Below are positions 1-3,393 of a stretch of DNA of 3,393 nt, in pieces. How positions within the stretch are numbered: the first letter of the stretch is position 1; the number at the start of each line of letters is the position of its first letter. Source of the stretch: Escherichia phage BZ13. The translations under genes and the position numbers were made by a program. The stretch lies in sequence record FJ483838.1, one strand, 5' to 3'. Under the pieces are notes generated by a model. That model had not been told where the DNA came from, did not search any database, and worked only from the letters and a program-made list of their open reading frames with translations.

Positions 1-20
1 ATGCCGTTAGGTTTAGGTGA

Positions 21-38
21 CGGTATATCCATATACCG
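21..38 (+). promoter_or_regulatory. Perfect inverted repeat (cggtatat / atataccg) forming a 7-8 bp hairpin immediately 5' of, and overlapping the first G of, the maturation-gene Shine-Dalgarno sequence
   Basis: Positions 21..28 are the exact reverse complement of 31..38. A realistic fold is stem 21..27 with 32..38 and loop 28..31 (ucca). G38 is the first base of GGAGG at 38..42. Confidence 0.4.
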
Positions 39-42
39 GAGG
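38..42 (+). promoter_or_regulatory. Shine-Dalgarno sequence (GGAGG) for the maturation protein gene
   Basis: GGAGG at 38..42, 4 nt upstream of the ATG at 47..49. Confidence 0.6.
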
Positions 43-46
43 AGCT

Positions 47-1219
47 ATGTTTCCGAAACAGAATATCGATCGAACCTACAAGGTTACACTTATTTCTTAC
101 GACAAGAAGGGTAATGTCACTTCTGATGATTCTTTCGAATCGACAGAGAACTATCTCCTTCAAAATCGTTCGAATTCGTATAAACCTGGTTACGTTCGAA
201 AGGGATTCCGTAAACCGACAAACTTTTGGAATGGCTATCGCTATTTCAATCAGCCCGTCGGCGTCTTTACTCGGAAACTTGACAACGGTGGGAGACAAGT
301 CGCTGATTACGGTATCGTGAACCCTAATAAGTTCACTGCTAATAGTCAGCACTTGGGAGAGAACATGGTGATTTATCCAGGTCCTTTCTCGATCAATATT
401 GATAATAGAGCTAGTGTCGAAGTCCTTAATAAACTTTCTCAATCTAACCTCAATATTGGGGTTGCGATTGCAGAAGCTAAAATGACTGCTTCACTGCTTT
501 CTCGTCAATCGATCTCTCTCATCCGAGCCTACACTGCTGCAAAGCGCGGTAAGTGGCGGGAGGTGTTATCACAACTCCTTATCGCCGAACACCGTTTCAC
601 GAGACCCTCAAGGGATCTCGGAGGTCGATGGCTCGAACTGCAGTACGGTTGGTTACCTCTTATGAGTGATATCAAGGCTGGCTATGATCTGCTTACGCAG
701 ACTAAATTACCTGCTTTAATGCCTCTTAGAGTTACCCGCACCGTTGGCGGCACACACAATTATAAAGTGCGTAACGTCGAATCTGCAGGAGATACTTGGT
801 CATATAGCGATCGGCTCTCAGTGAATTACCGAATATGGTATTTCATCTCTGATCCCCGACTCGCATGGGCAAGTTCTCTAGGTCTCTTAAACCCATTAGA
901 AATTTATTGGGAAAAGACACCGTGGTCGTTCGTTGTTGACTGGTTTCTGCCCGTAGGAAATCTGATCGAAGCCATGAGTAACCCTCTTGGCTTAGACATC
1001 ATTTCTGGGACAAAGACCTGGCAACTCGAATCTAAATTGAACGCAACCATTAACGCATCAGGCTGGTCTGGGACAGCAAAGTTATCTGCATATGCGAAAG
1101 CGTATGACAGGTCTACTTTCTATTCCTTTCCAACGCCTATGCCTTACGTGAAATCCCCACTTAGTGGGCTTCACATGGCCAATGCGCTCGCATTAATTAA
1201 CCAACGCCTGAAAAGGTAA
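47..1219 (+). CDS. mat: Maturation (A / assembly) protein of an ssRNA levivirus, 390 aa
   Basis: Long ORF first in gene order, ending TAA at 1217..1219. Starting at the ATG at 47 gives exactly 390 aa, the size I recall for the GA A protein. The ORF track extends to a GTG at 17 (400 aa), but that codon has no SD while the ATG does. Position and size match the levivirus A protein. Confidence 0.85.
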
Positions 1220-1234: not shown

Positions 1235-1627
1235 ATGGCAACTTTACGTAGTTTCGTACTCGTCGATAATGGCGGTACGGGGAATGTTACTGTCGTTCCT
1301 GTTAGCAATGCCAACGGCGTCGCTGAGTGGCTTTCTAATAACTCGCGCAGTCAAGCTTATCGCGTGACTGCCAGTTATCGTGCGTCAGGCGCGGACAAGC
1401 GCAAATACACCATCAAGCTGGAGGTACCGAAAATCGTTACCCAGACAGTTAATGGTGTTGAGCTGCCTGTTTCCGCATGGAAGGCTTACGCCTCCATTGA
1501 CCTGACCATCCCTATCTTTGCGGCGACCGACGACGTGACTCTTATTTCCAAGTCACTCGCTGGTCTCTTCAAGATTGGGAACCCGGTTGCTGATGCCATC
1601 TCTTCACAGAGTGGGTTCTACGCCTAA
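1235..1627 (+). CDS. cp: Major capsid (coat) protein, 130 codons; levivirus coat fold and RNA operator-binding protein
   Basis: The translation MATLRSFVLVDNGGTGNVTVVPVSNANGVAEW...LTIPIFA...GNP...SGFYA aligns along its whole length with the MS2 coat protein (MASNFTQFVLVDNGGTGDVTVAPSNFANGVAEW...LTIPIFA...GNP...SGIY) and matches the GA coat as I recall it. Length 130 aa, TAA stop at 1625..1627. Confidence 0.95.
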   Translation: MATLRSFVLVDNGGTGNVTVVPVSNANGVAEWLSNNSRSQAYRVTASYRASGADKRKYTIKLEVPKIVTQTVNGVELPVSAWKAYASIDLTIPIFAATDDVTLISKSLAGLFKIGNPVADAISSQSGFYA

Positions 1628-1634
1628 GGCGTAG
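1618..1634 (+). promoter_or_regulatory. Hairpin placing the coat UAA stop codon in its loop (cuacgcc-uaa-ggcguag), just upstream of the lysis start
   Basis: 1618..1624 (ctacgcc) is the reverse complement of 1628..1634 (ggcgtag). The 3-nt loop 1625..1627 is the coat stop TAA. Confidence 0.45.
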
Positions 1635-1644
1635 TTCTTCAGCA

Positions 1645-1839
1645 TTGGGTCAGAAAGCAATTAAACATAAGGAAAACCTATGTTCCGATTCACAGAGATC
1701 AAAAAGACTCTATGTATGGATCGCACTCGCGATTGTGCTGTCCGATTTCACGTCTATCTTCAGTCATTGGATTTGGGGTCTTCTGATCCTCATTCTCCAG
1801 ACTTTGATGGACTTGCCTACCTTCGTGACGAATGTTTAA
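1645..1839 (+). CDS. lys: Lysis protein (L-type single-gene lysis), 64 codons, in a third frame spanning the coat-replicase junction; start codon uncertain (apparent UUG)
   Basis: The frame is open from the TGA at 1591..1593 to the TAA at 1837..1839. It encodes a basic N-terminal region followed by a hydrophobic segment LYVWIALAIVLSDFTSIF..WIWGLLILIL that resembles the MS2 L protein segment LYVLIFLAIFLSKFT. It has the canonical levivirus L position, overlapping the replicase 5' end out of frame. There is no in-frame ATG or GTG; the first usable start is the TTG at 1645. Confidence 0.7.
   Translation: MGQKAIKHKENLCSDSQRSKRLYVWIALAIVLSDFTSIFSHWIWGLLILILQTLMDLPTFVTNV
1665..1683 (+). promoter_or_regulatory. 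Coat-protein translational operator hairpin containing the replicase SD and AUG (ACAUA-A-GG-AAAA-CC-UAUGU)
   Basis: Stem 1665..1669 pairs with 1679..1683, A1670 is unpaired, GG 1671..1672 pairs with CC 1677..1678, and the loop is AAAA 1673..1676. The replicase AUG is 1680..1682 and the SD AAGGA is 1669..1673. This is the same architecture as the MS2 operator (ACAUG-A-GG-AUUA-CC-CAUGU), with A at loop position -5 as reported for GA-type operators. Confidence 0.8.
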
Positions 1840-3278
1840 CTAAACATCCTTCACTTGGAGACAGTAATTCGGATGCACTCCGTAAGGAATTGGCATATGC
1901 CAAACTTATGGATAGTGATCAAAGATGCAAAATCCAAAACAGTAACGGATACGACCTGAGTCATATCGACTCTGGCGTACTTAACGGCATATTACTAACC
2001 GCTAAGGCTTCAATAGCGAAGTTACTTATGGGCTTTGAATCTCACTTCCTGAACGATTGTTCATTCTCCAATGGAGCCTCACAAGGGTTCAAGTTGCAGG
2101 ATGCAGCGCCGTTTAAGAAGATCGCTGGGCAAGCAACCGTTACAGCTCCTGCTTATGACCTAGCCGTGCACGCAGTTAAAACTTGCGGACCATGGCTTCG
2201 TTATATGCAGGAAACGTATGGCGATGAGACCAGATGGTTTCGTCGGGTATACGGAAACGGTTTGTTTTCTGTTCCGAAGAACAATAAAATAGATCGGGCT
2301 GCCTGTAAGGAGCCTGATATGAATATGTATCTTCAGAAAGGTGCTGGCTCTTTTATTAGACGCCGACTCCGATCTGTGAACATTGATCTTAACGATCAAA
2401 CACGCAATCAGGAATTGGCCCGACTTGGCAGCATTGATGGTTCGCTTGCTACTATTGATTTAAGTAGTGCTAGCGATTCCGTCTCTGATCGCCTCGTCTG
2501 GGATTTACTTCCGCCGCATGTTTATTCATATCTCCACCGTATCCGCTCATCTTTCACTATGATCGATGGGCAGTTACATAAGTGGAACCTATTTTCTACG
2601 ATGGGTAACGGTTTTACATTCGAGCTCGAGTCCATGATATTTTGGGCTCTGAGTAAGAGTGTAATGTCGTACCTCGGTGTTACTGGCTTACTTGGCATCT
2701 ATGGAGACGATATAATCGTCCCCACGAAATGCGCACCCCTTCTTCTACAGGTATTATCGGCTGTGAACTTTCTTCCTAACCAGAAGAAGACGTTTACTAC
2801 CGGTTATTTCCGTGAGAGTTGTGGGGCACATTTCTTTAAAGGTGCTTCAGTAAAACCTTTTTACTGCAAGCGGCCGATGGAAACCCTTCCCGATATTATG
2901 TTACTCTGTAACAGAATTCGTGGTTGGGGTACTATCGGGGGAATATCAGACCCTCGACTCTTTCCAATATGGAAGGAGTTTGCAGATATGATACCGCCTA
3001 AGTTTAAGGGTGGATGTAACCTTGATCGCGACACTTACCTTGTTTCACCGGATAAACCTGGTAAAACATTAGTTCGTGTTGCGAAGAAACGAAGTGGTTT
3101 TAACCATAAGTTTCGTAGTGACTATGAAAATGGTCGCTATATTCATTGGTTACATATGGGATCGGGCGAAGTGCTCGAAACTATATCTTCCGCCAGGTTT
3201 AGGTGCAAACCTAATTCGGAATGGAGGACACAGATCCCGCTATTTCCTCAGGAAATAGAGGCCTGCGTTCTCTCCTGA
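1680..3278 (+). CDS. rep: RNA-dependent RNA polymerase (replicase beta subunit), 532 aa
   Basis: Largest ORF and last in gene order. Contains RdRp motif A (IDLSSASDS, Asp codons at 2457..2459 and 2475..2477), a motif B-like region (SMGNGFTFELES) and motif C YGDD at 2700..2711. Size equals the GA replicase as I recall it. TGA stop at 3276..3278. Confidence 0.95.
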   Translation: MFRFTEIKKTLCMDRTRDCAVRFHVYLQSLDLGSSDPHSPDFDGLAYLRDECLTKHPSLGDSNSDALRKELAYAKLMDSDQRCKIQNSNGYDLSHIDSGVLNGILLTAKASIAKLLMGFESHFLNDCSFSNGASQGFKLQDAAPFKKIAGQATVTAPAYDLAVHAVKTCGPWLRYMQETYGDETRWFRRVYGNGLFSVPKNNKIDRAACKEPDMNMYLQKGAGSFIRRRLRSVNIDLNDQTRNQELARLGSIDGSLATIDLSSASDSVSDRLVWDLLPPHVYSYLHRIRSSFTMIDGQLHKWNLFSTMGNGFTFELESMIFWALSKSVMSYLGVTGLLGIYGDDIIVPTKCAPLLLQVLSAVNFLPNQKKTFTTGYFRESCGAHFFKGASVKPFYCKRPMETLPDIMLLCNRIRGWGTIGGISDPRLFPIWKEFADMIPPKFKGGCNLDRDTYLVSPDKPGKTLVRVAKKRSGFNHKFRSDYENGRYIHWLHMGSGEVLETISSARFRCKPNSEWRTQIPLFPQEIEACVLS

Positions 3279-3289
3279 TAGTATCAGGA
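3273..3289 (+). promoter_or_regulatory. Hairpin embedding the replicase UGA stop codon (ucctga-uagua-ucagga)
   Basis: 3273..3278 (tcctga) pairs with 3284..3289 (tcagga), with loop 3279..3283. Confidence 0.35.
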
Positions 3290-3344
3290 CCTCCCCGGAT
3301 GGGGTGGGTGGGACCGAAAGGTTCCTATGGAGGTGATATCCTCC

Positions 3345-3356
3345 CGCCGTAAGGCG
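3345..3356 (+). other. Small hairpin with a GNRA-type tetraloop (cgcc-GUAA-ggcg) in the 3' UTR
   Basis: CGCC 3345..3348 pairs with GGCG 3353..3356, loop GUAA 3349..3352. Confidence 0.35.
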
Positions 3357-3362
3357 TTTAAG

Positions 3363-3387
3363 GTGACTAGTTTGCTTGGCTAGTCAC
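3363..3387 (+). other. 3'-terminal hairpin (8 bp stem gugacuag / cuagucac, 9-nt loop) followed by the single-stranded CACCCA tail
   Basis: 3363..3370 is the exact reverse complement of 3380..3387. The loop is 3371..3379 (tttgcttgg) and the tail is 3388..3393. Confidence 0.6.
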
Positions 3388-3393
3388 CACCCA

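What the first reader, a model, noticed from the sequence alone, without database searches (positions are those of the whole stretch)
1625..3357. Repeated 8-mer UAAGGCGU in two hairpin contexts (coat stop and 3' UTR)
The sequence taaggcgt occurs at 1625..1632 and again at 3350..3357, each time with CGCC immediately upstream (directly adjacent at 1621..1624; separated by a single G at 3345..3348). Both copies can form a CGCC/GGCG stem, the first with the UAA stop as its loop and the second with loop GUAA. Two near-identical local structures 1.7 kb apart could be chance in a 3.4 kb genome, or could be recognition elements for a common factor or partners in a long-range interaction.
Basis: seen in the sequence. 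Interest (0 to 1): 0.2.

Follow-up and report, generated by a model that had tools for sequence, protein, structure and literature searches.

The report
Coincidental 8-mer in two unrelated hairpins
The same eight letters occur twice in this small RNA phage genome, each time in a real hairpin, but the two hairpins have separate origins and jobs and the match is a coincidence seen only in this one strain.

Summary
The window is a near-complete group II F-specific RNA coliphage (Emesvirus japonicum, KU1 lineage; its replicase matches the BZ13 protein ACT66724.1, probably strain T72). TAAGGCGT does occur at 1625 and 3350, and both copies lie in stable predicted hairpins. The repeat is ordinary, though. 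The genome holds 91 repeated 8-mer pairs against 95±12 in shuffles. Six pairs have both copies in a hairpin arm, and 76% of shuffled genomes have at least one.

Copy 1 is the coat stop codon plus the start of an 18-nt insertion. This is the insertion known from KU1, placed in the lysis start codon. It occurs only in the KU1 clade (9 sequences) and is absent from 11 distinct GA-type sequences. It forms a 7-bp hairpin (not 4 bp) and lengthens a closing stem that buries the UUG lysis start.

Copy 2 is the loop and 3' arm of the second-to-last 3'-UTR hairpin. Its CGCC/GGCG stem is conserved across group II, but the loop differs (GUAA here, UUUAUU in KU1, CAAAA in GA-type). The 8-mer therefore exists there only in this strain.

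I found no support for a shared factor or a long-range contact.

The parts
1625..1632 (+). Copy 1 of UAAGGCGU: the coat stop codon UAA (hairpin loop) plus the first 5 nt (GGCGU) of the KU1-type insertion
1618..1634 (+). Hairpin 1: 7-bp stem CUACGCC/GGCGUAG with the coat stop UAA as a triloop
   Evidence: dG -12.4, z -4.0. Pair probability 0.996 in the 1235-1950 context. Invariant in all 9 insertion-bearing sequences, so there is no covariation evidence. Absent from GA-type genomes.
1628..1645 (+). 18-nt KU1-lineage insertion GGCGUAGUUCUUCAGCAU, placed between the UAA and UG of the GA-type UAAUG coat-stop/lysis-start overlap. Its last U creates the UUG lysis start.
   Evidence: Alignments A1, A3 and A4. 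KU1 is annotated with its lysis CDS starting 18 nt after the coat stop, whereas GA's starts at the last A of the stop. Title of Groeneveld et al. 1996, cited in PMC12856241.
1581..1593 (+). 5' strand of the closing stem (ACCCGGU.GCUGA) of the coat-3' three-way junction
   Evidence: MFE in a 500-nt context. The ACCC/GGGU core is predicted in all group II genomes folded except L020; the extension exists only where the insertion is present.
1639..1650 (+). 3' strand of the closing stem (UCAGC AUUGGGU). It contains the lysis UUG start at 1645-1647.
   Evidence: P(unpaired) of the UUG is 0.11/0.03/0.02 in the window, against 0.60-0.95 for the A and U of the AUG in GA-type genomes.
1596..1614 (+). 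Older hairpin near the end of the coat gene, annotated in GA as 'pot. function in lysis gene control'
   Evidence: GA record features 1683-1707; folds
1645..1839 (+). Lysis gene (64 aa, UUG start), overlapping the replicase start
   Evidence: KU1 annotation
1665..1683 (+). Coat-protein operator hairpin around the replicase AUG (1680). Shown for context; it is not part of the repeat.
   Evidence: Sub-threshold Rfam RF02359 match (18.8 bits, E 0.31); GA annotation 'pot. binding site coat protein'
3350..3357 (+). Copy 2 of UAAGGCGU: the last 3 loop bases, the 4-nt 3' arm and 1 flanking U of hairpin 2
3345..3356 (+). Hairpin 2: CGCC-GUAA-GGCG, the second-to-last hairpin of the 3' terminal domain, directly 5' of the terminal hairpin U1
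   Evidence: Pair probability 0.984. The CGCC/GGCG stem is conserved in all group II 3' UTRs, but the loop is GUAA (window), UUUAUU (KU1) or CAAAA (GA, DL10, DL20, L009, L015). MS2 and fr have a short GC hairpin at the same position with a different sequence.
3310..3344 (+). Two further 3'-domain hairpins (GGGACC-GAAA-GGUUCC and GGAGG-UGAUAU-CCUCC), which do show compensatory changes across group II
   Evidence: for example U-A to G-C in the first, and A-U to G-C in DL10 in the second
3362..3388 (+). Terminal hairpin U1, with the conserved UGCUU loop
   Evidence: PMC3561173 section 8

Best explanation
The two UAAGGCGU copies are a coincidence between two unrelated local hairpins that happen to share a 4-bp CGCC/GGCG stem core.

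Copy 1 belongs to a lineage-specific hairpin. An 18-nt insertion, already described for phage KU1, split the ancestral UAAUG coat-stop/lysis-start overlap. Its first 7 nt pair with the last coat codons and put the stop codon in a triloop. Its last part pairs with upstream coat sequence, which lengthens a pre-existing ACCC/GGGU closing stem into a three-way junction that buries the new, weak UUG lysis start. Inferred mechanism: only a ribosome that has translated the end of the coat gene and terminates at 1625-1627 opens this structure. The UUG 18 nt downstream can then be reached by termination-reinitiation (scanning), which keeps lysis coupled to coat translation.

Copy 2 belongs to the second-to-last hairpin of the conserved 3' terminal domain. 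There the stem is maintained while the loop drifts. Its inferred role is architectural, within the domain recognised during replication and packaging.

The 8-mer identity arises only because this strain's loop happens to end in UAA and the base after the stem is U.
For: Shown. The window is a KU1-lineage group II levivirus: 90.9% identical to KU1 and ~85% to GA, DL10 and DL20, with a replicase identical to ACT66724.1. Repeated 8-mers occur at chance frequency, with or without the hairpin context. Copy 1 is present only where the insertion is present: window, KU1, L006-8 and L020-23. It is absent from GA, DL10, DL20 and L009-L016. The insertion-bearing sequences form a single clade. Copy 2's 8-mer is unique to the window, with three different loops on one conserved stem. 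Both hairpins are stable and highly probable. The insertion buries the lysis start: P(unpaired) is 0.02-0.11, against 0.60-0.95 for the A and U of the AUG in GA-type genomes. L021, with a 22-nt variant, forms a 12-bp outer stem that includes its AUG. Cross-pairing between the two sites is weaker than the two local hairpins.

From the literature. KU1 has an 18-nt insertion in its lysis start codon and uses UUG (Groeneveld et al. 1996, as cited in PMC12856241). Lysis is translationally coupled to coat in enterobacterial leviviruses (PMC3561173). In phage fr, a ribosome terminating at the coat stop can reach a start codon about +23 nt downstream, and the nearest start wins (Adhin & van Duin 1990, as summarised in PMC12548453). 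The framework for the 3' domain comes from PMC3561173 section 8.
Against: No covariation supports either stem. Hairpin 1 and the CGCC/GGCG core never vary in the available sequences, so the structural evidence is thermodynamic plus stem-versus-loop conservation. The complementarity of the insertion to upstream coat sequence is only marginally above chance (14/18 nt paired against 4.5 for shuffled inserts, p ~0.06). In two insertion-bearing variants (L020, L023) the start codon is predicted to be less buried. The functional role of either hairpin was not tested, and the 1996 KU1 paper could not be read. Only two KU1-lineage 3' UTRs exist in the data (window and KU1), so how far the GUAA loop spreads within the sub-lineage is unknown.
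Confidence: 0.9

Rival explanations
1. Both hairpins are recognition sites for one factor, such as coat-protein dimers (packaging signals), the maturation protein, or the replicase and its host factors. The factor would read the shared UAAGGCGU on a CGCC/GGCG stem.
For: Both are stable GC-stemmed hairpins with A-containing loops. Leviviruses are reported to use many dispersed stem-loops as coat-protein contacts, and in MS2 the 3' end lies near the maturation protein (PMC10610835; PMC4751978).
Against: GA-type group II phages lack hairpin 1 entirely. The hairpin 2 loop differs between T72, KU1 and GA-type, so no shared loop sequence is conserved. The two loops differ in size (3 nt against 4 nt) and the stems in length (7 bp against 4 bp). 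Neither has the unpaired stem purine that is critical for operator-type coat-protein binding in MS2, GA and PRR1 (PMC3561173; structures).
Confidence: 0.04
2. The two sites pair with each other. The CGCC of one pairs with the GGCG of the other in a strand-exchanged extended duplex, linking coat termination and lysis control to the 3' replication domain.
For: Because both stems are the same near-palindrome, an intermolecular-type duplex of 6+4 bp can be drawn at -17.2 kcal/mol. Long-range interactions are common in levivirus RNA (PMC3561173).
Against: The two local hairpins are more stable (-19.2 in total), and cofolding keeps them local. Forming the duplex would also require closing a 1.7-kb loop. 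Hairpin 1 does not exist in GA-type phages, so the interaction cannot be a conserved group II feature. The 3' domain already has a better conserved candidate long-range partner elsewhere: the U1 loop UUGCUUG with CAAGCAA at 2130-2136, which is invariant from MS2 to T72.
Confidence: 0.02
3. The similarity reflects common descent. The insertion at the coat stop would have been copied from the 3'-UTR hairpin by replicase template switching. GA-type 3' UTRs read CGCC-CAAAA-GGCG-GUUCU, against CGCC-UAA-GGCG-UA-GUUCU at the coat stop.
For: By eye, GGCG plus GUUCU match with a 2-nt gap. RNA recombination by template switching is discussed for leviviruses (PMC3499819).
Against: Local alignment of the 18-mer against six group II genomes on both strands gives a best score of 16, against 17 +/- 1.8 for shuffled inserts, and the 3' UTR is not among the top hits. 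The upstream CGCC is part of the coat gene and predates the insertion; the GA-type contig L015 already has GCC.
Confidence: 0.03

Closest known systems
KU1 18-nt insertion in the lysis start codon (Groeneveld, Oudot & van Duin 1996, Virology 218:141; group II levivirus)
   Same: Same position, same length and identical sequence (GGCGUAGUUCUUCAGCAU) as in KU1. Same consequence: a UUG lysis start 18 nt after the coat stop.
   Different: Nothing differs for the window itself. New here are the metagenomic variants of the same insertion: L020 (an 18-nt form with UAAUG/AUG restored) and L021 (a 22-nt form). I could not read the 1996 paper, so I do not know whether the hairpin or three-way junction was already described there.
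MS2/fr control of the lysis gene by local structure plus coat-termination-dependent reinitiation (Berkhout 1987; Schmidt 1987; Adhin & van Duin 1990)
   Same: The lysis start is sequestered in structure formed with coat-coding sequence. It becomes accessible only after a ribosome has translated and terminated on the coat frame. The start is reached by short-range scanning, and UUG is usable as a start.
   Different: In MS2 and fr the lysis start lies 50 or 38 nt upstream of the coat stop. In GA it overlaps the stop (UAAUG). Here it lies 18 nt downstream. The coupling mechanism in T72/KU1 is inferred, not tested.
Hairpin with the coat stop codon in its apical loop in group I phages (MS2 CCGGC.UCUA-CUAA-UAGA.GCCGG; fr equivalent)
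   Same: A local hairpin presents the coat stop codon in or next to its loop, just upstream of the operator.
   Different: The sequences are unrelated, and GA-type group II phages lack such a hairpin. The KU1-lineage hairpin is therefore an independent acquisition through the insertion.
Levivirus 3' terminal domain (ld IX, hairpins U1, U2 and V; Beekwilder/Olsthoorn/van Duin models, summarised by Rumnieks & Tars 2012)
   Same: A terminal U1 hairpin with a UGCUU loop, preceded by short hairpins whose structure is kept while the sequence varies.
   Different: Which published name (U2 or V) belongs to the CGCC hairpin in group II could not be verified, because figures are not held. Its loop is A-rich in GA-type (CAAAA) but not in KU1 (UUUAUU).

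Membership tests
KU1-type lysis-start insertion lineage of group II leviviruses (Emesvirus japonicum) | 18 extra nucleotides between the UAA and UG of the GA-type UAAUG coat-stop/lysis-start overlap | tested here: met
   Alignment A1: the window and KU1 share the identical 18 nt, which GA, DL10 and DL20 lack. The same holds in L006-8, L022 and L023.
KU1-type lysis-start insertion lineage of group II leviviruses (Emesvirus japonicum) | Lysis ORF starts with UUG 18 nt downstream of the coat stop and encodes a ~64-aa protein | tested here: met
   ORF 1645..1839, TTG start, 64 aa. KU1 lysis CDS is annotated at 1735..1929, with the coat ending at 1717.
KU1-type lysis-start insertion lineage of group II leviviruses (Emesvirus japonicum) | Phylogenetic placement with KU1 rather than with GA | tested here: met
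   90.9% nucleotide identity to KU1 against ~85% to GA, DL10 and DL20. Replicase 95.9% identical to KU1 against 89.1% to GA. NJ tree.
Levivirus 3' terminal domain | 3'-terminal hairpin U1 with the conserved loop UGCUU, followed by the ...ACCCA end | tested here: met
   11-bp stem 3362-3388 with loop UGCUU, p 0.99. The feature is described in PMC3561173.
Levivirus 3' terminal domain | Long-distance interaction ld IX pairing the extreme 3' terminus with an upstream stretch to close the domain | tested here: inconclusive
   Local folds pair only 2-3 nt of the terminal CC(C) with upstream G's. No covariation is available.
Levivirus 3' terminal domain | Internal hairpins keep their structure while their sequence varies | tested here: met
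   Compensatory changes occur in the GGGACC/GGUUCC and GGAGG/CCUCC hairpins. For the CGCC/GGCG hairpin the stem is invariant with three different loops, and MS2 and fr have a hairpin at the same position with a different sequence.
Operator-like coat-protein binding hairpins (packaging signals) | An unpaired purine in the stem and a loop adenine at the critical position, as in the MS2/GA/PRR1 operators | tested here: not met
   Hairpin 1 is a perfect 7-bp stem with a UAA triloop. Hairpin 2 is a perfect 4-bp stem with a GUAA loop. Neither has a bulged purine. The criterion is from PMC3561173.
Conserved long-range RNA-RNA interaction | Complementary partner sequences retained, ideally co-varying, across related genomes | tested here: not met
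   The two 8-mers are identical, not complementary. One partner is missing in GA-type genomes and the other differs in KU1. The energetics favour the local hairpins.
Dispersed repeated cis-element (the same motif used more than once) | Repeat frequency or length above the chance expectation for the genome | tested here: not met
   91 repeated 8-mer pairs against 94.7 +/- 12 in shuffles, with no extension beyond 8 nt. 76% of shuffles contain a repeated 8-mer with both copies in hairpin arms.

The most novel reading that the evidence does not exclude
Within the KU1/T72 lineage only, the newly acquired coat-stop hairpin and the second-to-last 3' hairpin share the CGCC/GGCG stem. They might occasionally exchange strands, or bind one dimeric factor, which would give a lineage-specific link between coat termination or lysis timing and the 3' replication/packaging domain.
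Probability: 0.03. Interest if true: 0.4.

Novelty: not a real feature. Interest (0 to 1): 0.07.

Why it matters
It matters little. The result removes a false lead, because a repeated 8-mer in a 3.4-kb genome is expected by chance. Both hairpins are explained by known levivirus biology: the KU1 insertion at the lysis start, and the conserved 3' terminal domain. One modest by-product is that environmental contigs show the KU1 insertion defines a whole clade and is still changing (an AUG-restored form and a 22-nt form). A second is that the insertion is predicted to bury the lysis start in an extended stem. Together these give a simple natural series for testing how stop-to-start spacing and structure tune termination-reinitiation of a phage lysis gene.

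Tried and rejected
1. Origin of the insertion by copy-back on the coat 3' end. This was attractive because the reverse complement of the insert reads A|UGCUGAAG|AA|CUACGCC, and UGCUGAAG is exact in L009 and L021. Support is only marginal (p ~0.05-0.06 for pairing and MFE against shuffled inserts) and at chance level by alignment.

2. Origin from the 3'-UTR hairpin, or from the downstream TCTTCAGTCAT at 1757-1767. Neither is above chance.

3. Covariation test of the three-way junction. The nine sequences are too similar: all 7 pairs of hairpin 1 never vary, and no pair changes on both sides.

4. MAFFT alignment of the 3' UTRs (A5) misaligns the short CGCC stems. I tabulated that hairpin from the individual folds instead.

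5. Whole-genome partition function. It timed out and was replaced by ~700-nt contexts.

6. Rfam. Only a sub-threshold match to the MS2 operator appeared, and nothing at either copy.

7. Searches for more KU1-lineage 3' UTRs. The metagenome scan with a conserved 3'-UTR anchor found nothing. The scan with the insertion pattern only re-found L020 and L022. The viral-contig scan with a KU1-type 3'-UTR pattern found nothing.

8. The 1996 KU1 paper and Olsthoorn & van Duin 1996 are not held.

9. SD-like reading of UAAGG. The motif lies about 15 nt from the UUG and inside a stem, so I did not pursue it.
Full report
**What the window is.** The 3393 nt encode a maturation protein (probably from ATG 47), coat (1235..1627), a 64-aa lysis protein (UUG 1645..1839) and replicase (1680..3278). 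This is the layout of an F-specific ssRNA coliphage. Megablast places the window in group II (Emesvirus japonicum). It is 90.9% identical to KU1 over its full length and ~85% to BZ13 strains DL10 and DL20 and to GA. Window base 1 corresponds to KU1 base 91, so about 90 nt of the 5' end are missing. The replicase is identical to ACT66724.1, a BZ13 replicase from a 3393-nt record. That accession falls between those of DL10 (FJ483837) and DL20 (FJ483839), and Friedman et al. list strain T72 as FJ483838, so the window is very probably T72.

**Checking the observation.** TAAGGCGT occurs at 1625-1632 and 3350-3357 and nowhere else. CGCC precedes both copies as described, directly at 1621-1624 and with one intervening G at 3345-3348. 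Both local hairpins fold.
It is CUACGCC(1618-1624)-UAA-GGCGUAG(1628-1634), 7 bp, dG -12.4 kcal/mol, z -4.0. Its pair probability is 0.996 in a 716-nt context.
- Hairpin 2 is CGCC-GUAA-GGCG (3345-3356), with probability 0.984 in a 694-nt context.

The repeat itself is unremarkable.
- The window holds 91 repeated 8-mer pairs, against 94.7 +/- 12 in dinucleotide-preserving shuffles. The match extends by no base on either side.
- I then required that both copies overlap an arm of a hairpin with at least 4 Watson-Crick pairs. The real genome has six such pairs, and 76% of shuffled genomes have at least one.
- The low per-pattern expectation (0.10) applies only to a motif chosen in advance.

I assembled four annotated relatives (GA, KU1, DL10, DL20). 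To these I added three IMG/VR fragments (L006-8) and twelve ENA/Logan contigs found through the replicase cluster (L009-L016 and L020-L023).
- Copy 1 is present only in the window, KU1, L006-8 and L020-23.
- Copy 1 is absent from GA, DL10, DL20 and L009-L016.
- Copy 2's 8-mer is present only in the window.
- At the copy 2 site KU1 reads CGCC-UUUAUU-GGCGG. GA, DL10, DL20, L009 and L015 read CCGCC-CAAAA-GGCGG.

No other genome has both copies.

**What copy 1 really is.** In GA-type genomes the coat stop and lysis start overlap as UAAUG; GA's lysis CDS starts at the last A of the stop. The window and KU1 carry 18 extra nucleotides, GGCGUAGUUCUUCAGCAU (1628-1645), between UAA and UG. This is the insertion named in the title of Groeneveld, Oudot & van Duin 1996. 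A later paper cites that work for the use of UUG as start codon in KU1. I could not read the 1996 paper itself.

Copy 1 is therefore the coat stop codon plus the first five inserted bases. The insertion-bearing sequences form one clade, ~85% identical to the GA-type clade, which suggests a single insertion event.

Two new variants turned up within this clade.
- L020 ends the insert with ...CAGUAAUGGG. This restores a UAAUG and an AUG start.
- L021 has a 22-nt version and also an AUG start.

In an unbootstrapped NJ tree of 690 nt, both nest inside the UUG-type clade and so look derived.

**Predicted structure around copy 1.** Folding in 500-nt contexts gives a consistent picture.
- In nearly all group II genomes folded (all but L020), an ACCC/GGGU stem closes the 3' end of the coat gene. 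The GGGU follows the lysis start codon.
- In GA-type genomes the A and U of the AUG are mostly unpaired (P 0.60-0.95).
- In T72 and KU1 the insertion does two things. It forms hairpin 1, and its 3' part (UCAGCA) pairs with upstream GCUGA. This extends the closing stem to ACCCGGU.GCUGA / UCAGC.AUUGGGU.
- The result is a three-way junction that also contains the older hairpin annotated in GA as a potential lysis-control element.
- The UUG start is then almost fully paired (P unpaired 0.11/0.03/0.02).
- L021 forms a 12-bp outer stem that includes its AUG.
- L020 and L023 are predicted to be less closed.

**Inferred mechanism for copy 1.** This part is inference, resting on established levivirus biology.
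- Lysis is translationally coupled to coat in enterobacterial leviviruses (PMC3561173).
- In MS2 a local hairpin suppresses the lysis start, which is reached by ribosomes that have finished coat translation (PMC5007439).
- In fr, terminating ribosomes scan to the nearest start, including one placed about +23 nt downstream (Adhin & van Duin 1990, summarised in PMC12548453).

A ribosome reaching UAA 1625-1627 has melted the 5' strands of both stems and covers hairpin 1's 3' arm. That leaves the UUG at +18 exposed for reinitiation, while independent initiation is blocked. MS2 and fr also have a hairpin with the coat stop in its apical loop, though the sequence is unrelated. GA-type phages do not have one.

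**Limits for copy 1.** Hairpin 1 never varies in the nine sequences, so there is no covariation evidence. The insert's complementarity to upstream coat sequence is only marginally above chance (p ~0.06). The insert's origin is unresolved: it has no above-chance similarity to any part of six group II genomes on either strand. I therefore dropped the copy-back, local-duplication and 3'-UTR-derived ideas.

**What copy 2 really is.** The 3' UTR folds into a domain of four hairpins:
- GGGACC-GAAA-GGUUCC (3310-3325);
- GGAGG-UGAUAU-CCUCC (3329-3344);
- CGCC-GUAA-GGCG (3345-3356);
- the terminal hairpin U1 (3362-3388), with the family-wide UGCUU loop.

This fits the published framework for the levivirus 3' terminal domain (PMC3561173 section 8). 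The first two hairpins show compensatory changes across group II. The CGCC/GGCG core never varies, but it carries three different loops. MS2 and fr have a short GC hairpin of different sequence (CGGGA-UUC-UCCCG) at the same position, directly 5' of U1. The element is therefore a structural hairpin whose loop sequence is free to change. The UAA that completes the 8-mer is a peculiarity of this strain. No function was tested for this hairpin; by analogy with other levivirus 3' domains I take its role to be architectural.

**Rival explanations.**
- A common factor is unlikely. One site is missing in half of group II, the loop at the other site is not conserved, the loop sizes and stem lengths differ, and neither hairpin has the bulged purine needed for operator-type coat-protein binding.
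- A direct long-range contact is unlikely. The motifs are identical rather than complementary. Only a strand exchange of the shared palindromic stems is possible, at -17.2 against -19.2 kcal/mol for the local hairpins, before any loop-closure cost.
- The 3' domain has a far better conserved candidate partner elsewhere. CAAGCAA at 2130-2136 is complementary to the U1 loop region UUGCUUG (3372-3378). It is invariant from MS2 and fr to GA, KU1 and T72.

**Verdict.** Each hairpin belongs to a known kind of levivirus element. Interest is low. The only modest additions are the clade-wide distribution of the KU1 insertion, its new variants, and the prediction that it buries the lysis start.

Noticed in passing
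window 2130-2143 and 3372-3378: CAAGCAACCGUUAC is invariant in T72, KU1, GA, DL10, DL20, L009, L015, MS2 and fr, although the flanking codons vary. CAAGCAA is the exact complement of UUGCUUG (the U1 loop UGCUU plus its closing U.G pair) about 1240 nt downstream. This is the same geometry as the Qbeta long-distance pseudoknot mentioned in PMC3561173. A second AAGCAA lies at 1655-1660.
   Followed up: partly
L020:334-448 and L021:332-450 (aligned to window 1584-1698): Two environmental variants of the KU1 insertion. L020 keeps 18 nt but reads ...CAGUAAUGGG, which restores UAAUG with an AUG lysis start and adds a second in-frame UAA. L021 has a 22-nt insert (an extra UUCU), an AUG start and GA-like GCUGAAG upstream, giving a 12-bp outer stem. 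L020 comes from a low-coverage assembly (cov ~1.7), so errors are possible.
   Followed up: partly
window 1661-1663: The KU1 lineage carries a further 3-nt insertion (AUU in most members including the window; UUU in KU1 and L021; AAU in L023) between GAAAGCA and the operator AAACAU. The coat-stop to replicase-start spacer is therefore 21 nt longer than in GA-type genomes (52 nt against 31).
   Followed up: no
L017:1714-1737 (MS2) and L018:1715-1736 (fr): Group I phages have a hairpin with the coat stop codon(s) in or next to the apical loop (MS2 CCGGC.UCUA-CUAA-UAGA.GCCGG). GA-type group II phages lack an equivalent, and the KU1 lineage regained one through the insertion.
   Followed up: partly
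window 9-19 / 3195-3205 and 180-190 / 3052-3062: The longest exact repeats in the window are two 11-mers, AGGTTTAGGTG and ATAAACCTGGT. About 1.4 such pairs are expected by chance in 3.4 kb.
   Followed up: no
window 1-49: The window starts at KU1 position 91, so the 5' hairpin and most of the 5' UTR are missing. The mechanical ORF call starts at GTG 17, but the annotated KU1 and GA maturation starts correspond to ATG 47 (390 aa).
   Followed up: partly
window 3310-3325 and 3345-3356: In this strain two of the four 3'-domain hairpins carry GNRA tetraloops (GAAA and GUAA). KU1 has GUAA in the first and a 6-nt UUUAUU loop in the other.
   Followed up: no
Only the copy at 1669 (the replicase SD in the operator) is suitably spaced from a start codon. 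The count is near the chance expectation of about 3.
   Followed up: no
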